A DNA stretch of 64,000 nt, from the IMG/VR virus record IMGVR_UViG_3300042874_000086, positions 1 to 64,000 of that record. One strand, written 5' to 3'. Position numbers and translations under genes: made by a program. The notes beneath the pieces were generated by a model that was given only the letters and a program-made list of their open reading frames with translations, ran no database searches and was not told the origin of the DNA. Positions 38,784 through 50,376 of the stretch are shown here, in pieces. Position 1 is the stretch's first letter. Each line of letters opens with the position of its first letter. The stretch is from a virus.

Positions 38784-41030
38784 ATGGGCAAGAGTGGTGG
38801 GTGCCAGGTAGTCGGTTACAGTTATTTTCTAGATATGGCTTATGCATTTTGTGATTATACCGACCACATACTTGGCTTTTATCTTCAGGAGAATAATGTA
38901 GTCAGTCTCAATCTTTCTAATAATGGGCAGACGTTTACAACACCAACGGGGATTAAATCAGAGCTGGGGGGTTCTTTAGGTGCTGACGCCGTCGTTACTT
39001 ACTACTCCGGTACCCAGACCACATCAGACCCTTATTTAGAGTTGAAATCGGGCAAGGCATTAGCATACCATAATGTGTGTTACTTGGTATTTAAACAAGC
39101 ATTTATAGGGGATAATGTACGTACTGTACCTACCTATGGAGTACTTCTAGAACGAACTGGGATATTATCTGCCAGTTCTTTACCTAATTATGCTACCTAT
39201 AGTAAAATAATGGGTACTAAGGTAATTAGTTCTTTTTCTTACACACAAAGTTCTAGTAGCACTGGTTCTATCCCCTTAGCGGAGTTACAAAGTAGTGTTG
39301 GATGGCTTAGCCAAAGGGCAAGAGTTGTTGGTAATGAGTTATTGGTCGATATAGCTACAGCTAACCCCGCTTATATTATTTACGATATTTTAGTAACACT
39401 ACTTAAAGTAAATCCATCTTTAATAGATACTACCTCCTTCAGTACTGCTGCTGAAACTTTATATAATGAGAAACTTGGTATTAATATAGTCTTATCCTCT
39501 TCTAAGAAGGGGGTGGACTGGATTAATGAAATACTTCGGTATGCTAGTGGAATTGTTTATTTTAATACTAACATAGGAAAGTATACTATAAAGTTATTTA
39601 GAAGTGATTATATAAGTAGTGACCTATTGGAGGTATCTATTGACAACGCTAATTCGATAGAATTCGAAAGACCCTCTAGAGCTAACTTACCAAACACTTT
39701 TACTATTAAATACGCTAATATTACTGGTACTGGAGTCCCCAAAAAAGATTCATTAACACTTACTAACTATGCTAATCTAACTATTGCCGGGTTTATAAAG
39801 AATATGGAGGTAGACTTTACTTGTGTAAATACAGATGAGGCTTTAGAGTACTTAGCGAGTTTATATTTTAAAAAGTTATCTTATCCACTAGCTACAATAA
39901 AGTTCAAGATTAATATATTAGACGCTATGTACTTACAAATAGGGGAGACCTTTTCGTTTTATCACGAGACATTAACAAGTACTGGGTCTATAATATTTAG
40001 GGTCTTAAAAGTTACTGGTGATTCATCTAAGGAGCCATACCTTACTATAGAGGCGATTGAGGACATCTTTCATGTAGGGGAGGTTGTATCAATACATAAT
40101 AGTGTATCACTGGTGCTTCCTCCCCTACTCTCCTTATACCAGCCCCCCGACAAGATGAAATTTTTTGACTGTACCCCAGAGAGTGGTACCTACCGGGGGG
40201 TATACGTTGCCACCCATTACACCAATCCACCAGGGTCTGTAATTAGAAATTTAGTTGCGGTAGAGCCTAATCAGTCACAAATAACATTTCAATCTTGGGG
40301 GTATGGGGAAGTAATAAATATTCAGAATTACTCTGATGAATCTGTTGATTATGACTTAATTATTACCATTACAGACCCTTATGAGTCTTTACAGGAAATA
40401 CTCGGAACATCTGCGGATTTACAACGGAATGTTTACACCGCGTATTGGGGGAATGAGGGAATATCGTATAAAACCTGTATTTTAGTTGATGTTGGTGTAT
40501 ATGAGATTAAAGGAATAATTAGAGGCGCAATGGGGTCTAAAACTGCCCACTCTATCGGCGAAGAATTCTGGGTAACCCCAGTATCTGCTAATCAGCTACG
40601 TCCACTACCTATTGTATCTATTACCCCAACTATTTCAGTATACGCGGAAAATAGTGTTGGGACCTCCCCAAGTATTTCAAGCACGTATACTTATAATTAT
40701 TCTTTGGAAACCCCATACCCTCCCAACTCTTTGAGGGTTACCCCTATGGTTGGGTACGCCAATTTATTGTGGTCTCCTTGTGTAAGACTTGCTGGTGCTA
40801 ACTACAGAAACTGTGATACTATAGTAGCGGGGCATGACGAGGGGGTTGTTGAGGGTTCCTTTAAGATATATAAAGACAACGTTTATGTTACAACCATTAT
40901 CCCAAAAACCTCGGATACTTTTATTAGTTATCAAGTGACACAAACTGGAACTTGGGCTATTAGTACTGTTGTTGGTTCTTTTGAATCAGTTAAAGTTACC
41001 AGCGTAGTGTCTAGTGGTGATATTTTATAA
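38784..41030 (+). CDS. Central tail/tip attachment protein
   Basis: MGKSGG..VGYSY, ANPAYIIYDIL, AAETLYNEKLG, IRGAMGS. Confidence 0.85.
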   Translation: MGKSGGCQVVGYSYFLDMAYAFCDYTDHILGFYLQENNVVSLNLSNNGQTFTTPTGIKSELGGSLGADAVVTYYSGTQTTSDPYLELKSGKALAYHNVCYLVFKQAFIGDNVRTVPTYGVLLERTGILSASSLPNYATYSKIMGTKVISSFSYTQSSSSTGSIPLAELQSSVGWLSQRARVVGNELLVDIATANPAYIIYDILVTLLKVNPSLIDTTSFSTAAETLYNEKLGINIVLSSSKKGVDWINEILRYASGIVYFNTNIGKYTIKLFRSDYISSDLLEVSIDNANSIEFERPSRANLPNTFTIKYANITGTGVPKKDSLTLTNYANLTIAGFIKNMEVDFTCVNTDEALEYLASLYFKKLSYPLATIKFKINILDAMYLQIGETFSFYHETLTSTGSIIFRVLKVTGDSSKEPYLTIEAIEDIFHVGEVVSIHNSVSLVLPPLLSLYQPPDKMKFFDCTPESGTYRGVYVATHYTNPPGSVIRNLVAVEPNQSQITFQSWGYGEVINIQNYSDESVDYDLIITITDPYESLQEILGTSADLQRNVYTAYWGNEGISYKTCILVDVGVYEIKGIIRGAMGSKTAHSIGEEFWVTPVSANQLRPLPIVSITPTISVYAENSVGTSPSISSTYTYNYSLETPYPPNSLRVTPMVGYANLLWSPCVRLAGANYRNCDTIVAGHDEGVVEGSFKIYKDNVYVTTIIPKTSDTFISYQVTQTGTWAISTVVGSFESVKVTSVVSSGDIL

Positions 41031-41068
41031 ATAAAACGATTATAACAATAATACTAAGAGGTAATTAA

Positions 41069-41755
41069 ATGGCACTTTTGGCTAATGGGTTAGAGACCCT
41101 CGAAATAGGGGCAACTGCTTGGCGGTTGATTGTAAATGCTAACATAGAGAAACTTTATAGTAAAACTGAATGTGATACTAAGTACGTAGCAAAAGCTGGT
41201 AGTACTATGACGGGGCTTCTAGTCCTATCCGCAAACCCATCTGCTCCCTTAGGGGCAGCTACAAAACAGTATGTGGACGATAAAGTTACTTTAGAGAATA
41301 TTCAAGATTTGCTGGGGTCTTCTTTTGTAAACTCAACTTCTATTGATTGTAGTTATAATGATATTAGTAATAACTGGGTATTTTCTGTTATATTTGGGAC
41401 AACATCTACTACCGTAGCTACCGGAAATCATAAACATAATAATATGTACTCGGTTACCATGTCCTCGGACCTATCCCCCTCCAATATGGATATATATGAT
41501 AACTTTTATATTACTCTAGGGGCTAGTATAGCAGTCAATAATCCTACCAACCATTCAGTAGGACAAACAGGTAAAGTGGTATTCAAACAAGATGTTACTG
41601 GGGCCAGGGTAGTTACTTGGGGTTCTTATTACTTATTTCCCGGGGGAACCGAGCCTACTTTATCAACTGTGGCAAATGCTGTAGATACCTTTAGTTATTT
41701 TGTACTTTCTTCTACAGAGATTCTAATTACTAACATTAATTTAGCGATGTCTTAA
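41069..41755 (+). CDS. Tail fibre-like protein
   Basis: GSTMTGLL, AATKQYVD, QDVTGARVVTW...PTLSTVANAVD. Confidence 0.8.
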   Translation: MALLANGLETLEIGATAWRLIVNANIEKLYSKTECDTKYVAKAGSTMTGLLVLSANPSAPLGAATKQYVDDKVTLENIQDLLGSSFVNSTSIDCSYNDISNNWVFSVIFGTTSTTVATGNHKHNNMYSVTMSSDLSPSNMDIYDNFYITLGASIAVNNPTNHSVGQTGKVVFKQDVTGARVVTWGSYYLFPGGTEPTLSTVANAVDTFSYFVLSSTEILITNINLAMS

Positions 41756-41759
41756 TAGG

Positions 41760-42395
41760 ATGAATACTTTTATCAGAATACTTAATTATACAAAGTGTTT
41801 ATGGTCGAAATATAATCCGTTTGACTTAAATGATGAATTTATAGGTATTAATGAACATCTTATAAACGTTTATAATAAAGTTGTAGGTATAGAAAATGCA
41901 ATTATTATAGAGTTGGAAACTTATAAACAAGAACGATTATATTATCATAACTTAGTAGAAGCTATTGGTGATGTTTCTCCCGACATGTTATGGGCTAAGA
42001 ATTTAGATGGTAAATATATTTATGCAAATAATGCAATAAAAAATGGACTACTGCTAGACCATGACCCAATTGGTAAAGATGATGTCACCTTAGCACTGGC
42101 CGCTAAGGAAAGATTTGGTGAAGAAAACCACACTTTCGGGGAACTTTGTGCCGACTCCGACACAATTACTTTGACAGCATTAAAAGAATGCTCTTTTTGG
42201 GAGTACGGGAAAGTTAAGGGCAGTGACTTACACTTACTGGTAAAAAAGAAACCACTCTATGTTGATGGTGAATTGTATGGAACTGTAGGTAGTGGGAGGG
42301 ATATAACAGATTTAGTTATATTATCTAACACAGTTAATAATAATTGCTCTACTTATACATCTTTTTTTGATATCTTAGAAAAATATAAATTTTAG
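41760..42395 (+). CDS. Stand-alone PAS-domain protein
   Basis: PDMLWAKNLDGKYIYANNA, IGKDD, KKPLY.DGELYGTVGSGRDITD. Confidence 0.88.
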   Translation: MNTFIRILNYTKCLWSKYNPFDLNDEFIGINEHLINVYNKVVGIENAIIIELETYKQERLYYHNLVEAIGDVSPDMLWAKNLDGKYIYANNAIKNGLLLDHDPIGKDDVTLALAAKERFGEENHTFGELCADSDTITLTALKECSFWEYGKVKGSDLHLLVKKKPLYVDGELYGTVGSGRDITDLVILSNTVNNNCSTYTSFFDILEKYKF

Positions 42396-42397
42396 GG

Positions 42398-42679
42398 GTG
42401 AACATGTCAGTTGGGTCTTGGGATGAGTTAAAATTTTATCTTACTAAAACAATAGATGAGATAAAATCAGACCTTCATTATATACGCAAAGAACAGTTGG
42501 ATACTAGAGAAAAACTCACAAATGTTTCTGCACAACTCCAAGGGCTTGATATCATTAAAACAGACTTACATGTGGTACAAGAAAAAGTTACAATTATCCA
42601 AACCAAGTTACTTGTGGGGGTTGCTATAGTAGGTGTGGTTGCTTCTGCAATCGTGCAATGGCTTGGAAGATTATTTTAA
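42398..42679 (+). CDS. Putative holin (coiled coil plus C-terminal TM helix)
   Basis: Single C-terminal hydrophobic helix; directly before an endolysin. Confidence 0.6.
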   Translation: MNMSVGSWDELKFYLTKTIDEIKSDLHYIRKEQLDTREKLTNVSAQLQGLDIIKTDLHVVQEKVTIIQTKLLVGVAIVGVVASAIVQWLGRLF

Positions 42680-42688
42680 GGAACTACG

Positions 42689-43087
42689 ATGGATATAGTA
42701 TATACCCAATGGGAATTTGTTAAAAATATTAGTAAACTTTTAACATTTATTGAGGGGTCTAATTTTATGGTAACCTTAGGGGAAGCTTATAGGCCCTATG
42801 AATTACATTTGTTATATCTTCACGGGTTATCCGTAGAGGAGTATGGAGACTCACTTAATTTCGTACCCACTAAGCAAAAAGCCCGTACAAAAACTTCAAA
42901 GCACCTTAAACGTCTAGCTATTGACTTTAACTTCTTTATTAAAAACGATAATGGTGAGTACGATTTGACTTATGATACTTACTTGTTGACCTTAATAGGT
43001 GAGTACTGGGAAACTCTAAATGAAAATAATGTGTGGGGCGGTTTTTGGAAACACCCAGACCCTACCCACTTTCAAATGTCATACTAA
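42689..43087 (+). CDS. M15-family peptidase (endolysin-like)
   Basis: GEAYR, SKHLKRLAID, WGGFW..D..HF. Confidence 0.9.
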   Translation: MDIVYTQWEFVKNISKLLTFIEGSNFMVTLGEAYRPYELHLLYLHGLSVEEYGDSLNFVPTKQKARTKTSKHLKRLAIDFNFFIKNDNGEYDLTYDTYLLTLIGEYWETLNENNVWGGFWKHPDPTHFQMSY

Positions 43088-43097
43088 AGGGAAATAT

Positions 43098-43325
43098 ATG
43101 AAAAATTTTATTATACTTAGGTTAATTAATATGTTATTAGGTAGGGATACCTATGATGTTATTTTTAAGCTTGTATTTAATTTAGCCACAACCCAAAGCA
43201 CTGGGGAAGAGAAAAAGACTAAAGTTAAAGAATCTTTAAAAGACCTTAGACTGGACGTAAAAGACTCTGTAATAAATTTAGCAATTGAACTAGCAGTTGC
43301 CCAATTAACTTTAAAGGATAAATAA
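43098..43325 (+). CDS. Small holin-associated/hypothetical protein
   Basis: Start MKNFII after an AAAGGGA RBS; TGEEKK...INLAIELAV. Confidence 0.65.
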   Translation: MKNFIILRLINMLLGRDTYDVIFKLVFNLATTQSTGEEKKTKVKESLKDLRLDVKDSVINLAIELAVAQLTLKDK

Positions 43326-43744
43326 TGGCTATTGTTGCTGCAGTTTGTGACTCTTACTTAAAAGAATTGTATGAAGGTACCCACGTAGCTACCGACAATT
43401 ACTACATAGCTTTATACTTGGACACTGCTAACTTGGGGAGTACTACCACAAGTTACTCAATTACTGATGAGACCTCTGGAACGGGGTATACTGCCGGGGG
43501 GCAACTACTGGTTGGGTTTAATACACTTATAGACTCGGGCGTATCTATTTTAGATTTTAGCACTGACGCGGTGTGGTCAGTATCTACAATAACCGCTGCC
43601 GGGGCACTGATATATAACTCAACAAAATCCAATAAAGCCGTTGCAGTGCTAGATTTTGCTGGGAATGTATCCTCGGTTGATGGCGATTTTATTGTTGAAT
43701 TTCCGCTTCCTACCTCTACAGCTGGATTAATAAGGATTTCATAA
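43325..43744 (+). CDS. Virion structural protein
   Basis: YIALY, ETSGTGYTAGG, TITAAGALIYN, AVLDF. Confidence 0.75.
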   Translation: MAIVAAVCDSYLKELYEGTHVATDNYYIALYLDTANLGSTTTSYSITDETSGTGYTAGGQLLVGFNTLIDSGVSILDFSTDAVWSVSTITAAGALIYNSTKSNKAVAVLDFAGNVSSVDGDFIVEFPLPTSTAGLIRIS

Positions 43745-44169
43745 TGCCAGCCTTTGGGTCATCTTCACAACAACGTTTACAAAAGGTACACCCCGACTTA
43801 GTTAAGGTTATGAACGAAGCTATCAAACATATTGATTTTTCAATTATGTTTGGTTACCGCTCCCCAGAAGAACAATTAGAGTTATTTAAAAAAGGTCGTT
43901 CATTCCTAAAAGGAAAATGGGTAATTACTAGCAAGAAATCTGTCGTTACATATATGGACGGTACTACTAAAAAATCAAACCATAACTTCAGTCCCGCTAG
44001 AGCAGTTGATATTATGCCTTACCCGTTCCTTCAAAGTTACTGGAAAGACTCTAAAATTTGGTATGAGTACTCCGAGGCTATTAAAAAAGCTGCCGATACT
44101 ATTGGTGTAAAAATAGTTTGGGGCGGGGATTGGAAAATGTTTGACGCCCCACATTTTGAGTTAGTCTAA
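43744..44169 (+). CDS. M15-family L-Ala-D-Glu peptidase endolysin
   Basis: VHPDL, GYRSPEEQ, SNH..ARAVD, WGGDW.MFDAPHFEL. Confidence 0.93.
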   Translation: MPAFGSSSQQRLQKVHPDLVKVMNEAIKHIDFSIMFGYRSPEEQLELFKKGRSFLKGKWVITSKKSVVTYMDGTTKKSNHNFSPARAVDIMPYPFLQSYWKDSKIWYEYSEAIKKAADTIGVKIVWGGDWKMFDAPHFELV

Positions 44170-44238
44170 ATCCACAGCTAGTTAATCCATACGATTATTG
44201 AGTAGTTATCAAAAACTAGTTAATAATAAAGGATTTAC

Positions 44239-46164
44239 ATGGCTTTAATTGCCTCCGACTGGACAGTATCTACAAATGGTGATATAAGGTACATTGGTGC
44301 AGCACACGGTATCACCGGTGCTTCGTATGCAACAGTTATTGAGTTGCATAGATGGTTACAAGACTTAGCGGATGACGCAAGTGCTTCTGGTGATGATTTA
44401 CTTGACATTACCGGTTTAACACCTTCAGGCCGTGATACAGATAACATTATCAATCTACTTGGTACGTATAATATCAATCAGGCAACATCAGAACATCTTT
44501 ATGATGGTACAATTAAGCAAGCGTTAGGTGCTGATATCTGGGATGGTATTGTCAACTATGGTAATGAGGGTATTGATATTCAGCTCATCCAAAATGGTGC
44601 GTTGGTTGCAAATGACTTCTGGAATAGTCTACCTTTTGGTGCGACACTTACCGGTCTTAATCGTGATTTAGTTCAAGGTATCTCACACCGTTTCTTAGTT
44701 AAGACCCGTACAGCCGGTGTGGATATTGATGCCCGACGTATTCTAGGTATCACTCGTGAGTATGGTAAGACATACGCTGAATTTAATATCAACGCGACTG
44801 CCTCAGGAAATAACGTTCTTGCATTGGTTAATGCACTAGATGGAAATAACACTACTGCGTCAGGAACTGTAGGGGCATGGGATAGTATTACAAATGCAAA
44901 AACCGATAGTACAACTACCGTAAATGGTACTAATGCTATTAGTTCAACTACACTCAATGTTGTGTCGGGTGCTGCATTTACTAAAGGTAACTTCATTACA
45001 ATTGGGTCATTGACGCATGAGTACCAAATTACTAATATTGCAACCAATGCGTTGACAGTCACCCCGGGGTTGGAGGAAGCAACTACCGGTGGGGAAATTG
45101 TTTATAAGTTAGGTTTGGGATATAACGGAATTGATATTAATAATGATACTGTCAACGAGTTCTACTACACTAATTGGAATCGTGATTCATACACAATTAA
45201 CCAATTTTTTGAAAGAATGAAGTACCTTACTCGTGTTGGGTCTACTGGTAGAATGTATGGATTAAATGCGGAGATATTCCGTGGTATTACCCACGAGATT
45301 ACTGTTGACACACCTACTGGTACATTTGCAGCTGTAGAGCGTGTTACATGGACTGGTGGTACTGGGCAGATGTTAGCTATAACCTCACCAACTACGCCTA
45401 CTAAAATGTGGATTCAGTTACTAACTGGTACTGCGCCTGTTGATAACGTTGTGATTACTGGTACTGTCAGCACTGCTACCGCTACTGTCAATGTTACCGT
45501 TACAGAGCGTACAGCACTGATTAAGCAACCATTTGCCGGAACTTCAACGGGTACAGCTTTATCGGGCGGGTATGGTATAGGTATTGAAAAGCTTGACTTG
45601 ACCGCTGCTGACAAAGTATTTGACTTAACGAATGCGCAGTACTCTCCACCTGACTATCGTGTAACTACAGTCGCTGGTTTGATTAGTACGGAGGATAGAG
45701 TTCTTGTTGGTCCAGATAATGCAGGTGCGCTTCAAGATGGTCAGTTCTTGTTGAATGCAGGTATTACATCTGGTGCAACATCAATTACCGTTAAGGTTGG
45801 TACGGAAACTCCTGGTACCAGTACGCAGTCAGCAATGGATACACCATCTGCAGGAACTTTACGTGTCAAAGATAATACAGGTGTATATCAGCGTGTTACC
45901 TATACAGGGTTTACTGTTGCTGCAAGTACAATGACATTCACAGGATGTTCTGGTGCTCCTACAGCGGCTTTGGATAACCAAGTATTTATCTCGTATCTTG
46001 ATAAGTTGGCAGACGGTACTTCGGTAACATTTACTACCATTTATCATTCGCCTAGAACATTATTTGCTCGTGTACGTGATGGTGGTGGGTCGCCTATTAA
46101 AACGTTTGAAAATACCGTTGCTCTCGGCGGATCTATTAGTGCTATCCGTACTCCAGACGTATAA
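44239..46164 (+). CDS. Virion structural/tail protein
   Basis: 641 aa, T/G-rich, own late-promoter motif and downstream hairpin. Confidence 0.7.
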   Translation: MALIASDWTVSTNGDIRYIGAAHGITGASYATVIELHRWLQDLADDASASGDDLLDITGLTPSGRDTDNIINLLGTYNINQATSEHLYDGTIKQALGADIWDGIVNYGNEGIDIQLIQNGALVANDFWNSLPFGATLTGLNRDLVQGISHRFLVKTRTAGVDIDARRILGITREYGKTYAEFNINATASGNNVLALVNALDGNNTTASGTVGAWDSITNAKTDSTTTVNGTNAISSTTLNVVSGAAFTKGNFITIGSLTHEYQITNIATNALTVTPGLEEATTGGEIVYKLGLGYNGIDINNDTVNEFYYTNWNRDSYTINQFFERMKYLTRVGSTGRMYGLNAEIFRGITHEITVDTPTGTFAAVERVTWTGGTGQMLAITSPTTPTKMWIQLLTGTAPVDNVVITGTVSTATATVNVTVTERTALIKQPFAGTSTGTALSGGYGIGIEKLDLTAADKVFDLTNAQYSPPDYRVTTVAGLISTEDRVLVGPDNAGALQDGQFLLNAGITSGATSITVKVGTETPGTSTQSAMDTPSAGTLRVKDNTGVYQRVTYTGFTVAASTMTFTGCSGAPTAALDNQVFISYLDKLADGTSVTFTTIYHSPRTLFARVRDGGGSPIKTFENTVALGGSISAIRTPDV

Positions 46165-49547: not shown

Positions 49548-50146
49548 CTATTGATTGGGGAACTAAAGTCATTAATATATTCAAGACTGATATGCTGTTA
49601 GTACAAGCAAGCCCTACTGAAATATGGGAATTAGATATCCCTAACTTTAAGATGTCCTTAGGTGATTTACTTGATGATGAGCACGGTATGATATACCCAG
49701 ATATATTCAAACACAACCCCGAGGTATCTGTAGGGGGAGTTAGCCTAGCTAAGGTTATTGAAATACTACCTCCCTATACTATAACATTCGAGGATGGTCA
49801 ATACGCAGTAAATTTAGTAGGGGCTAACAACAACGTAGGGGATAGAACTAATGTTAATCAAGTATCTATACGCTCTGCTAACTCAGCTGGGATGATTACC
49901 GTAGTAAATGGTGGTACTTCTGTTATTGATAGTAATACTATTACTAATATTGCCAATACAGTTTGGAGTGTACCAAAAGGTAACACTGTCTACCAACGCA
50001 GTATTGGGGGGTTTCGAAAAAATTATACAAACAATACAATTATTATGCTTAATGAAGATGGTACTGATGGTATAACTTATGCTTGTTTTGATAGATATGG
50101 GGTATCCTCCCTAACTACTGTAGATAGAATGGAATTAGTTCCGTGA
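49544..50146 (+). CDS. Hypothetical virion protein
   Basis: Coupled ORF in the late module. Confidence 0.7.
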   Translation: MTIDWGTKVINIFKTDMLLVQASPTEIWELDIPNFKMSLGDLLDDEHGMIYPDIFKHNPEVSVGGVSLAKVIEILPPYTITFEDGQYAVNLVGANNNVGDRTNVNQVSIRSANSAGMITVVNGGTSVIDSNTITNIANTVWSVPKGNTVYQRSIGGFRKNYTNNTIIMLNEDGTDGITYACFDRYGVSSLTTVDRMELVP

Positions 50147-50376
50147 ACCGTATAAATGTATGCTCTGGGAGATGTTTAGAACTAATTAGTGATACTACTG
50201 GAACCCTTAGTCATACCAAAGTATCAGTATTAATGGCCAACGTAGCGGGTACGGTAGCTTTTTTATACCAAGTATTTTCAGTAGGACTTACGGTTGAATT
50301 ATTACTGGGTTTCTTAGCCGCTATAGGCGCACAAAGGTATGGCTCTAAATACCTTGATATAAAAGGAGGGGGTTGA
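50143..50376 (+). CDS. Two-TM holin-like membrane protein
   Basis: GTLSHTK followed by two hydrophobic helices. Confidence 0.55.
   Translation: MNRINVCSGRCLELISDTTGTLSHTKVSVLMANVAGTVAFLYQVFSVGLTVELLLGFLAAIGAQRYGSKYLDIKGGG

What the first reader, a model, noticed from the sequence alone, without database searches (positions are those of the whole stretch)
41760..43325. Stand-alone PAS sensor heading the lysis cassette
Seen: a 211-aa protein with an N-terminal helical segment and one complete PAS domain (ending GSGRDITD) but no kinase, GGDEF or HTH output. It lies 2 nt before a holin-like gene, which is followed by an M15 peptidase and a small lysis-type ORF. Established: PAS domains sense ligands, redox or oxygen, and T4 lysis timing is controlled through a GAF-fold holin domain and an antiholin. 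Inference: a signal-responsive lysis timer, acting like an antiholin that binds the coiled coil of the 42398 protein; alternatively a decoy for host PAS signalling.
Basis: partly seen in the sequence, partly recalled or inferred. Interest (0 to 1): 0.75.

Follow-up and report, generated by a model that had tools for sequence, protein, structure and literature searches.

The report
Phage PAS sensor with membrane-anchored lysis partner
An uncultured phage encodes a small sensor-type (PAS) protein with no output domain that is always paired with a tiny membrane-anchored helical protein beside the cell-bursting genes, so the phage may time host lysis by an internal signal, though no experiment has tested this.

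Summary
Window 41760-42395 encodes a 211-aa protein with one PAS_4 domain (26.1 bits, cut-off 23.1) and no output domain. The AlphaFold2 model (pLDDT 91.8) shows two N-terminal helices, a PAS core and two C-terminal helices.

The next gene encodes a 91-93-aa protein with a heptad-rich N-terminus and one C-terminal membrane helix. It is the only membrane protein among the two M15 peptidase genes.

Related loci show a fixed two-gene module. A partner of this build follows the PAS gene in 28 of 33 loci, against 5 of 525 other genes. In some loci without such a partner the PAS protein carries its own membrane helices.

The pair sits among lysis genes of several unrelated types, with a cell-wall hydrolase within six genes in 17 of 29 IMG/VR loci.

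The PAS core shares its invariant residues, including Cys130 and Lys163, with sensor domains of bacterial GGDEF-EAL proteins and histidine kinases.

Most likely this is a cytoplasmic sensor that regulates a holin-type partner.

I found no matching cultured phage, PHROG family or paper. The scan has noted similar PAS-partner pairs in other genomes.

The parts
41036..41043 (+). ACGATTAT motif in the gap before the fibre gene; candidate late-promoter element for the block 41069-44169
Evidence: ACGATWAT occurs 21 times in the window against 4.15 expected; 0 of 100 shuffles reach 21. Promoter function is not shown; the sigma-70 and terminator scans of 40900-44400 gave nothing above chance.
41069..41755 (+). 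Tail-fibre-like gene (228 aa) directly upstream; its stop lies 4 nt before the PAS start
   Evidence: phrog_4757 at 3.7e-9 and tail-fibre PHROGs 16641, 9017 and 21722; sequence.
41760..42395 (+). Stand-alone PAS protein (211 aa): helix 2-17, NPFD loop, long helix 24-72, PAS core 76-181 ending GRDITD, helices 183-195 and 200-209
   Evidence: PAS_4 at 26.1 bits against 23.1. AF2 pLDDT 91.8. Foldseek listed hits are PAS/LOV/VqmA entries. Invariant D75 W78 K80 N90 D108 T125 C130 D134 E148 G154 V161 K163 G177 T183 in 63 sequences. No membrane helix.
42398..42679 (+). Partner gene: 93 aa from GTG 42398, more likely 91 aa from ATG 42404. Heptad-rich N-terminal region and a single C-terminal membrane helix (71-89), with 4 residues after it
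   Evidence: It is the only protein with a membrane-grade hydrophobic segment between 41000 and 44200. No Pfam or PHROG lysis family.
42689..43087 (+). M15_4 peptidase paralogue (132 aa) that keeps the metal and catalytic residues H72, D79, D124 and H127
   Evidence: PF13539 at 36 bits against 25; endolysin PHROGs 1768 and 465; alignment A7.
43020..43325 (+). Small helical ORF (101 aa, or 75 aa from ATG 43098) with only sub-threshold holin similarity
   Evidence: Holin_LLH at 17.7 bits against 24.9; phrog_6918 'holin' at E 0.0024; highest 19-residue hydropathy 1.2, below my membrane threshold of 1.6.
43325..43744 (+). 139-aa protein of unknown function inside the cassette
   Evidence: phrog_644 at 1.5e-13, unknown function. 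Conserved in L001 at the same position.
43744..44169 (+). M15_4 endolysin (141 aa), the clearest lysis enzyme of the cassette
   Evidence: phrog_465 'endolysin' at 8e-41; PF13539 at 44.2 bits. Homologues lie beside PAS pairs in 9 loci.

Best explanation
The 211-aa protein is a cytoplasmic PAS sensor that works as one half of a two-gene module. The other half is the small tail-anchored protein encoded directly downstream (42398/42404-42679).

In this phage the partner is probably the holin, or a co-holin of the XhlA/gp24.1 kind. Its heptad-rich N-terminus faces the cytoplasm and its single C-terminal helix sits in the inner membrane.

Proposed mechanism:
- The PAS protein docks on the partner's cytoplasmic region through its phage-specific long N-terminal helix, its conserved C-terminal tail, or both.
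- The state of the PAS pocket changes how readily the partner oligomerises or cooperates with other lysis proteins. The pocket's invariant residues are shared with sensor PAS domains of bacterial GGDEF-EAL proteins and histidine kinases.
- This shifts the moment at which the M15 endolysins reach the cell wall.

Shown here: the PAS fold, the absence of any output domain, the fixed PAS-partner gene pair, its residence in lysis cassettes of many kinds, and the membrane-PAS fusions that replace the partner.

Inferred: physical binding, ligand sensing, any effect on timing, and the direction of that effect.
For: 1. Fixed pair. In 28 of 33 loci (29 IMG/VR, the window, L030, L079, L101) the PAS gene is followed within 40 nt, often overlapping, by a 55-185-aa protein with one membrane helix and a charged N-terminus. 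The same holds for 5 of 525 other + strand genes in those loci. Two of the five failures (L006, L013) have the single helix but miss my charge cut-off.

2. Metagenome contigs. Of 23 complete stand-alone PAS ORFs, 15 showed the partner by HMM or build. L166 and L171 showed it after I relaxed an overlap filter. L167 is a near-copy of L166 and was not re-checked. L172-175 are fusions, and L239 has no room.

3. Strict co-occurrence. Among 50 IMG/VR loci found through the flanking holin family, the PAS HMM hit 9 loci and the partner HMM hit the same 9.

4. Fusions. L026 (330 aa) has 3-4 N-terminal hydrophobic segments. L172-175 (243 aa) have one segment above my cut-off plus two hydrophobic stretches judged by eye. 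All join this region to the same PAS, and none is followed by a coiled-coil/one-helix partner.

5. The module moves as a unit. The holin-family gene lies at +2 in 5 loci and at -1 in 5 loci. L022 has two successive PAS + partner pairs.

6. Lysis context. Hydrolases of several unrelated families lie within six ORFs in 17 of 29 IMG/VR loci: M15_4, M15_3, GH108 and phage lysozyme. Amidase_2 and CHAP occur in two MAG loci. GTA_holin_3TM and spanin-like pairs also occur.

7. In the window the partner is the only membrane protein among the lysis enzymes.

8. No output domain in any phage version. The multi-PAS proteins L012 and L027-29 also have none. L012, L027 and L028 are followed by a coiled-coil protein, with a clear membrane helix only in L027/28. 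L029's next + strand ORF is 199 aa with a late hydrophobic segment.

9. The pocket-type residues are invariant in both 37 stand-alone and 26 cellular sequences. Cellular relatives are N-terminal sensor domains of GGDEF-EAL proteins and histidine kinases. Invariant K163 aligns with VqmA K101, which hydrogen-bonds the ligand DPO.

10. Precedents for cytoplasmic regulators of holins: phiKZ gp143 (PMC12894885, abstract) and T4 RIII (PMC8385771, start of abstract).
Against:
- The partner matches no holin family. XhlA matched 2 of 24 members at E<=0.1. hhalign probabilities against an XhlA alignment were 28.9% (6 columns), 19.7% and 2.4%.
- 12 of 29 IMG/VR loci show no recognised hydrolase within six ORFs. 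In L008 and L009 the pair stands alone among opposite-strand genes, including one that looks Nudix-like by eye.
- About 5 of 40 holin-family loci without PAS still carry a coiled-coil/membrane protein of similar build. The partner type can therefore work without PAS.
- The ligand is unknown, and invariant residues could be structural.
- In several loci a separate multi-helix holin candidate exists, so the partner need not be the holin.
- Loci include near-duplicates (L002/3, L015/16, L017/18, L027/28). Collapsing them gives 24 of 29 for the pair and 14 of 25 for hydrolase linkage.
- The ORF calls and the membrane-helix scale are my own simple scripts.
Confidence: 0.5

Rival explanations
1. The PAS + partner pair is a membrane-associated sensor module for a late function other than lysis timing, such as superinfection exclusion, membrane remodelling or control of another envelope event. 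It merely tends to travel with lysis genes because both are small late accessory genes.
For: 12 of 29 IMG/VR loci have no recognised hydrolase within six ORFs. In L008 and L009 the pair sits alone among opposite-strand genes. The partner has no holin family.
Against: The pair is wedged between the holin-family gene and the endolysin in L015, L016, L020, L021 and L024, and directly ahead of holin and endolysin in L004, L013, L014 and L023. It keeps that place while the enzyme family changes. In the window the partner is the only membrane protein beside two peptidases that have no membrane-grade hydrophobic segment.
Confidence: 0.2
2. The PAS protein is a ligand-free adaptor. It is a structural partner, chaperone or fixed antiholin for the membrane protein that happens to use a PAS fold, so no signal is sensed.
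For: No cofactor or ligand could be assigned. PAS domains often serve as dimerisation modules (own knowledge). The closest solved relatives by sequence reach only E 7e-4.
Against: Fourteen positions, including C130, K163, W78, D108 and E148, are invariant across 63 phage and cellular sequences. The cellular ones are N-terminal domains of signalling enzymes. K163 aligns with the ligand-contacting K101 of VqmA. The GRDIT motif that ends signalling PAS domains (motif recalled, not from a call) is kept.
Confidence: 0.15
3. The protein is a decoy or modulator of host PAS signalling. It would heterodimerise with the host's GGDEF-EAL or kinase sensors that carry the same PAS type and so rewire c-di-GMP or two-component signalling during infection.
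For: The window's PAS core is 43-54% identical to 20 Campylobacterota-labelled cellular sensor PAS domains in A3, higher than to most phage homologues. Cellular relatives are PAS-GGDEF-EAL proteins and PAS-histidine kinases.
Against: The fixed membrane partner, the membrane-PAS fusions and the late, lysis-cassette position are not needed for a decoy. In a quick tree, 36 of 37 stand-alone sequences lie on one side of a branch with SH-aLRT 100, apart from all 26 cellular ones. That points to a long history within phages rather than fresh host mimicry.
Confidence: 0.1

Closest known systems
phiKZ gp142 (class III holin) with gp143 (cytoplasmic lysis regulator); PMC12894885, abstract read
   Same: A cytoplasmic protein encoded in the lysis cassette that appears to act on the cytoplasmic domain of a one-helix holin and changes the timing of holin lethality.
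   Different: From the abstract read, gp143 is described only as a cytoplasmic protein, and no sensor domain or signal is mentioned. I did not test homology to gp143. A class III holin has a large periplasmic domain (own knowledge); the window's partner has 4 residues after its helix. gp143 accelerates lysis; the direction here is unknown.
T4 lysis inhibition: holin T with antiholins RI (periplasmic) and RIII (cytoplasmic); PMC8385771, start of abstract seen
   Same: Lysis timing is set by small proteins that bind a one-helix holin, and one of them is cytoplasmic. It is a case of signal-dependent delay of lysis.
   Different: The T4 signal is sensed in the periplasm by RI, and RIII has a minor role. 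There is no PAS domain and no sequence relation was found. The signal here would be intracellular.
XhlA (PBSX) / SPP1 gp24.1 co-holins, Pfam PF10779; PMC6316719, one passage read
   Same: Small proteins with a soluble helical N-terminus and one C-terminal membrane helix, encoded beside a holin and an endolysin. They are harmless alone and lethal together with the two-helix holin.
   Different: Homology was not shown: hhalign gave 19.7-28.9% probability, and 2 of 24 members matched XhlA at E<=0.1. XhlA-type genes have no PAS neighbour that I know of (own knowledge).
VqmA of Vibrio cholerae and VqmA of vibriophage VP882 (6ugl, 6ide, 6kju, 7dwm)
   Same: These are the best sequence matches among solved structures (E 7e-4 to 7.6e-3) and are among the Foldseek hits. 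A phage-encoded PAS receptor reads a host-made small molecule to decide about killing the host (VP882 as an autoinducer-detecting phage: title and abstract start; the wider VP882 biology is partly recalled). The ligand-contacting K101 aligns with invariant K163.
   Different: VqmA is a transcription factor with a C-terminal HTH domain. The window protein has none and lies in the late lysis cassette with a membrane partner. F99 aligns with V161, and F67 falls in a stretch that was not aligned. The similarity is too weak for membership.
Short LOV/PAS proteins without an effector domain (PpSB1-LOV, PpSB2-LOV, SBW25-LOV)
   Same: They are among the top Foldseek matches (7a6p at E 1.2e-6, 8a36, 5j3w). 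They share the build: N-cap helix, PAS core and C-terminal helix, with no output domain.
   Different: Identity is 14-18%. I saw no flavin-binding LOV motif by eye (motif recalled, not tested). Those are bacterial photoreceptors without a dedicated membrane partner.
CetA/CetB bipartite energy-taxis system of Campylobacter jejuni; PMC2628428, listing and start of abstract only
   Same: A stand-alone PAS protein that signals through a separately encoded membrane-anchored helical partner (arrangement partly recalled).
   Different: The partner there is a chemoreceptor-type transducer that feeds chemotaxis, not a lysis-cassette protein. I made no sequence comparison.

Membership tests
PAS fold (Pfam PAS_4, PF08448) | Profile score at or above the curated gathering score | tested here: met
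   26.1 bits against 23.1, residues 71-185, profile positions 2-108 of 110.
PAS fold (Pfam PAS_4, PF08448) | Five-stranded antiparallel sheet flanked by helices, matching solved PAS domains | tested here: met
   The AF2 model (pLDDT 91.8) has strands 76-81, 86-89, 144-152, 155-168 and 171-181 with helices between them. Foldseek probability is 1.00 to NifL PAS, LOV, BvgS PAS and VqmA.
PAS fold (Pfam PAS_4, PF08448) | Binds a cofactor or ligand in the pocket | not testable with these tools
   The only indications are conserved residues (C130, H124, K163, W78) and the alignment of K163 with VqmA K101.
Antiholin / cytoplasmic lysis regulator (functional class) | Binds the holin or co-holin | not testable with these tools
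The indirect evidence is the fixed gene pair in 28 of 33 loci and the fusions.
Antiholin / cytoplasmic lysis regulator (functional class) | Changes the time of lysis | not testable with these tools
   This needs a bench assay.
XhlA / gp24.1 family (PF10779), for the 42398 partner | Sequence or profile similarity to PF10779 | tested here: not met
   The window partner has no XhlA hit at E<=1. Two of 24 partners match at E<=0.1, best 0.053. phrog_1193 'hemolysin' matches 3 of 24, best 0.0024. hhalign against 22 XhlA sequences gave 28.9% (6 columns), 19.7% (62 columns, short type) and 2.4% (long type).
XhlA / gp24.1 family (PF10779), for the 42398 partner | Soluble helical N-terminus, one C-terminal membrane helix, encoded beside holin or endolysin | tested here: met
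   The membrane helix is at 71-89 of 93, and 4 of 200 shuffles reach the heptad score. M15 peptidase genes follow.
Class III holin (T4 T type), for the 42398 partner | One membrane helix, cytoplasmic N-terminus and a large periplasmic C-terminal domain (definition from own knowledge) | tested here: not met
   Only 4 residues follow the helix in the window protein. Long-type partners in other loci have a 50-60-residue C-terminal coiled coil, still far smaller than T's domain.
VqmA-type PAS-HTH receptor | C-terminal HTH (LuxR-type) DNA-binding domain | tested here: not met
   There is no HTH family at E<=1, and the protein ends at residue 211.
VqmA-type PAS-HTH receptor | Ligand-contact residues F67, F99 and K101 | tested here: inconclusive
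   K101 aligns with invariant K163. F99 aligns with V161. F67 lies in a part that HMMER did not align. The whole match has E 7e-4.
Peptidase_M15_4 endolysins (42689-43087 and 43744-44169) | Profile above cut-off, and the conserved H, D, D, H positions (assigned as metal and catalytic residues from own knowledge) | tested here: met
   36 and 44.2 bits against 25. H72, D79, D124 and H127 are invariant in the 8 aligned sequences.

The most novel reading that the evidence does not exclude
Many uncultured phages carry a portable two-gene lysis switch. A cytoplasmic PAS sensor shares its binding pocket with the host's own c-di-GMP and kinase sensors. It reads the same intracellular cue as the host and, through a tail-anchored holin-type partner, makes the moment of host bursting conditional on that cue. 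This would be intracellular eavesdropping applied directly to the lysis clock rather than to gene expression.
Probability: 0.4. Interest if true: 0.85.

Novelty: new variant of a known kind. Interest (0 to 1): 0.66.

Why it matters
In the studied cases known to me, the lysis clock is set by holin accumulation. It is modified in T4-like phages and ICP1 by superinfection signals. A cytoplasmic regulator of a holin has been described for T4 (RIII) and phiKZ (gp143).

A lysis-cassette protein that is itself a ligand-sensing PAS domain would show that phages can couple the final killing step to the host's internal chemistry or energy state.

The module is widespread in uncultured phages:
- 1054 cluster representatives match the profile at E<=1e-30, most of them cellular sensors.
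- About 45 of the best 150 are short, stand-alone forms.

It is small and self-contained, and it offers a direct test by expressing the partner with and without PAS.

Its pocket is shared with uncharacterised sensor domains of GGDEF-EAL proteins and kinases of Campylobacterota. Finding the ligand would therefore also explain those host sensors.

Tried and rejected
- **Gene context by exact protein look-up:** I used the search for related loci instead.
- **Complex prediction of PAS with the partner:** I did not build a fused construct, because joined sequences are barred.
- **Further folds and fold searches:** Neither was retried.
- **Cultured phages:** tblastn against the INPHARED collection found no match for the PAS protein or for two long-type partners.
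- **Partner homologues:** only 2 close relatives of the window's partner turned up among 5.8 billion clustered proteins. An alignment of long-type partners was too variable to scan with. A single partner protein found only its own contig and one relative.
- **XhlA homology:** not shown.
- **Promoters and terminators:** the scan of 40900-44400 gave nothing above chance. The operon is inferred from tight spacing only.
- **RNA evidence:** no RNA holder is listed for window 41069-44169.
- **Habitat:** the stretch is held by contigs of cave, soil and biofilm metagenome runs. One cave run may be the source itself. The host was not determined. Campylobacterota is only a hint, from the cellular relatives and one 6.3-kb MAG contig (L030).
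- **Literature:** I found no paper on a PAS protein in a phage lysis cassette, and none supporting 'GAF-fold holin T'.
- **Tail-fibre chaperone:** considered because the gene follows a fibre gene. Rejected because the upstream neighbour varies between loci while the downstream membrane partner does not.
- **Tree:** only the quick tree finished. Its root is arbitrary, and five long branches are flagged.
Full report
**What is in the window.** The window is the first 64 kb of an 89,672-base IMG/VR virus record, which CheckV rates 48% complete. Genes on the + strand from 17.9 to 50 kb are structural. At 38784-41030 lies a tail protein (phrog_1101) and at 41069-41755 a tail-fibre-like gene. The following genes come next, tightly packed:
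- 41760-42395: the 211-aa PAS protein.
- 42398-42679: a 93-aa protein.
- 42689-43087: an M15_4 peptidase of 132 aa.
- 43020-43325: a small helical ORF with only sub-threshold holin hits.
- 43325-43744: a phrog_644 protein of unknown function.
- 43744-44169: a second M15_4 enzyme that matches endolysin phrog_465 at 8e-41.

The enriched octamer ACGATWAT occurs 21 times against 4.15 expected. It lies before the fibre gene (41036) and again at 44191, with further copies inside genes at 41933 and 42945. Generic promoter and terminator scans gave nothing above chance. Co-transcription of 41069-44169 is therefore an inference from spacing.

**The PAS protein.**
- Pfam PAS_4 matches residues 71-185 above its curated cut-off (26.1 against 23.1 bits). 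Nothing else matches, and no PHROG matches.
- With 63 aligned sequences, AlphaFold2 gives pLDDT 91.8. The model has helix 2-17, a loop holding a recurrent NPFD motif, a 49-residue helix at 24-72, the PAS core at 76-181, and helices 183-195 and 200-209.
- Foldseek finds generic PAS relatives. These include short LOV proteins, NifL, BvgS and VqmA, at E about 1e-6 and 13-20% identity.
- A profile of the family finds VqmA as the best solved relative by sequence. The matches are 6ugl, 6ide and 6kju at E 7e-4, and phage VqmA 7dwm at 7.6e-3.
- In that alignment the family's invariant K163 stands opposite VqmA K101. K101 hydrogen-bonds the autoinducer DPO and cannot be replaced even by Arg (bioRxiv 10.1101/2019.12.19.881847, passages read).
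- The protein has no hydrophobic segment of membrane grade.

**Relatives.** Thirty-two proteins of 116-370 aa match at E<=0.001, and most are 205-265 aa.

A genome scan found 281 relatives, of which 80 were kept. Most are labelled Campylobacterota, such as Sulfurimonas, Sulfuricurvum and Arcobacter-type.
- In most kept loci the match covers the PAS core, and the ORFs are 380-2133 aa.
- Of the ten I scanned, four are PAS-GGDEF-EAL, three are PAS-histidine kinases and one is PAS-PAS-GAF-GAF-GGDEF-HD. Two are short PAS-only proteins.

Fourteen positions are invariant in 63 phage and cellular sequences: D75, W78, K80, N90, D108, T125, C130, D134, E148, G154, V161, K163, G177 and T183. They are equally fixed in the 37 stand-alone and the 26 cellular rows. 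The long N-terminal helix and the C-terminal tail are confined to the stand-alone forms; in the tail, K208 is kept in 78% and F211 in 76% of these forms.

In a quick maximum-likelihood tree of the PAS core, 36 of 37 stand-alone sequences lie on one side of a branch with SH-aLRT 100. All 26 cellular ones lie on the other side. The exception is L022, which sits on a long branch. The careful search did not finish and the root is arbitrary.

A profile of 41 stand-alone sequences finds 1054 cluster representatives at E<=1e-30. About 45 of the best 150 are short proteins matched end to end.

**The partner gene.** The likelier start of the downstream gene is ATG 42404 rather than GTG 42398. GGGGTG overlaps the PAS stop, and the public gene call is 91 aa. 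The protein has heptad periodicity in its first 69 residues; 4 of 200 shuffles reach its score. It has one hydrophobic helix at 71-89, followed by four residues.

*IMG/VR loci.*
- In 29 IMG/VR loci with a PAS relative, the next gene on the same strand has the same build nearly every time.
- By fixed criteria, 28 of 33 PAS genes qualify, against 5 of 525 other + strand genes in the same loci. The criteria are 55-185 aa, one membrane helix starting after residue 30, a charged N-terminus and a gap within 40 nt.
- The five failures are L006 and L013 (single helix, but charge below my cut-off), L012 (hydrophobic end below threshold), L026 and L029.
- Collapsing near-identical loci gives 24 of 29.
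- Sequence conservation among partners is low, with a mean column identity of 20%.

*Control set.* Among 50 IMG/VR loci collected through the flanking holin-family protein, the PAS profile hit 9 loci and the partner profile hit exactly the same 9. About five of the other 40 carry a coiled-coil/membrane protein of similar build without PAS.

*Metagenome contigs.* There were 23 complete stand-alone PAS ORFs:
- 15 showed the partner.
- L166 and L171 showed it once an overlap filter was relaxed.
- L167 is a near-copy of L166 that I did not re-check.
- L239 has no room.
- L172-175 have none.

**Fusions.**
- L172-175 encode 243-aa proteins in which a hydrophobic N-terminal region is joined to the same PAS domain and tail. 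Only one segment passes my cut-off; two more are judged by eye. They are followed by a small hydrophobic protein that looks two-helix by eye, an M15_3-like enzyme (by eye) and an SU10-type portal.
- L026 encodes a 330-aa protein with 3-4 N-terminal hydrophobic segments before the PAS domain.
- So where a coiled-coil/one-helix partner is absent, the PAS protein carries its own membrane anchor. This is the strongest indirect argument that PAS and partner act together at the membrane.
- L022 carries two successive PAS + partner pairs.
- The multi-PAS proteins of L012 and L027-29 also lack any output domain. L012, L027 and L028 are followed by a coiled-coil protein, which has a clear membrane helix only in L027/28. 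L029's next + strand ORF is 199 aa with a late hydrophobic segment.

**Lysis context.** Neighbours were clustered by BLAST and one representative per cluster was scanned.
- Within six ORFs of the PAS gene, 17 of 29 IMG/VR loci have a recognised cell-wall hydrolase: M15_4, M15_3, GH108 with PG_binding_3, or phage lysozyme. That is 14 of 25 after collapsing duplicates.
- L005 has DUF5675 there. Three MAG contigs have Amidase_2, CHAP or M15_4.
- A multi-helix protein family lies at +2 in five loci and at -1 in five others. It is phrog_1544, linked at E 3e-6 to a cluster that matches GTA_holin_3TM. The PAS pair therefore moves as a unit within the cassette.
- Spanin-like pairs occur in L006 and L017/18 (by eye).
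- In 14 loci the cassette abuts an SU10-type portal gene.
- Twelve IMG/VR loci show no recognised lysis enzyme nearby. In L008 and L009 the pair stands alone among opposite-strand genes.

In the window itself, the partner is the only protein between 41000 and 44200 with a membrane-grade hydrophobic segment. It is therefore the best holin candidate for the two M15 enzymes. A 77-aa hydrophobic ORF at 50143-50376 is the nearest alternative.

**Reading.** The most likely function is a cytoplasmic sensor that regulates a holin-type or co-holin-type partner. I hold this at about 0.5.
- The build of the partner matches XhlA/gp24.1. Those proteins have a C-terminal membrane helix and cooperate with a two-helix holin (PMC6316719, one passage). 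Homology was not shown.
- Published cytoplasmic regulators of holins give a working precedent. phiKZ gp143 accelerates holin lethality and appears to bind the holin's cytoplasmic domain (PMC12894885, abstract). T4 RIII is a cytoplasmic antiholin (PMC8385771, start of abstract).
- Mycobacteriophage LysF1b is a one-helix lysis protein of the opposite topology (bioRxiv 10.64898/2025.12.04.692442, abstract).
- Neither the ligand nor the direction of the effect can be told from sequence. The invariant Cys130, with near-invariant His124, might mark a thiol switch, a metal or haem ligand, or a covalent chromophore. That is speculation.

**Novelty and the scan's own record.**
- I found no cultured phage with the gene, no PHROG family and no paper.
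- Earlier notes of this scan describe the same theme on other DNA. They report stand-alone PAS proteins with a membrane-anchored helical partner in lysis cassettes, and PAS domains fused to membrane hairpins.
- Those are unchecked AI notes, and I do not count them as support. One gave me the phiKZ paper.
- Against the literature searched, this is a new variant of a known kind: a holin regulator, here with a sensor domain.

**Limits.**
- ORF calls, membrane-helix calls and heptad scores come from my own simple scripts.
- Several loci are near-duplicates.
- Labels for neighbours rest on one scanned representative per BLAST cluster.
- Supplementary files of papers were not available.

Noticed in passing
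window 42689-43087 and 43744-44169: Two M15_4 peptidase paralogues sit in one cassette. They are about 21% identical, and both keep H, D, D, H (H72, D79, D124, H127 in the first). The 132-aa copy differs over much of the N-terminal half from the others. L001 has the same pair.
   Followed up: partly
window, 21 sites, for example 17934, 19323, 23848, 26059, 37772, 41036, 44191: The octamer ACGATWAT occurs 21 times against 4.15 expected by shuffling, mostly ahead of late genes. Copies also lie inside the PAS gene (41933) and inside the first M15 gene (42945).
   Followed up: partly
L022:7944-9476: Two successive modules: PAS (166 aa), an 84-aa tail-anchored protein, a second unrelated PAS (147 aa, PF00989), and a 100-aa coiled-coil protein with a C-terminal membrane helix.
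   Followed up: partly
L172-L175 (for example L174:77-808) and L026:7662-8654: Membrane-PAS fusions in which a hydrophobic N-terminal region is joined to the same PAS type. None is followed by a coiled-coil/one-helix partner.
   Followed up: partly
P0104 (552 aa): By eye, this is a membrane segment plus a histidine-kinase-like region (HisKA-like and ATPase-like motifs), followed at the C-terminus by the phage-type PAS with its CxxC...KY tail. That is an unusual domain order, and it was not scanned against Pfam.
   Followed up: no
L027, L028, L029: Phage proteins of 421-425 aa made of three PAS domains with no output domain. In L027/28 a 179-aa coiled-coil protein with one membrane helix follows. 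They sit in a different gene context, with no lysis genes recognised.
   Followed up: partly
L004, L013, L017, L018, L021, L024, L030 (1-4 genes upstream of PAS): A 126-146-aa protein recurs upstream of the PAS pair in 7 loci. Its representative has a sub-threshold match to transglutaminase-like cysteine peptidase C93 (24.7 bits against 27).
   Followed up: no
window 50143-50376: A 77-aa ORF with a strong hydrophobic segment (hydropathy 2.06 at 44-62), 6 kb downstream of the cassette. It is a possible alternative holin-like gene.
   Followed up: no
stand-alone PAS proteins, window residues 18-23 and 196-211: Two motifs are confined to the stand-alone forms. One is (Y)NPFD between the two N-terminal helices. 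The other is a C-terminal C-x2-C ... K-Y-x-F tail. The window protein has only the first Cys.
   Followed up: partly
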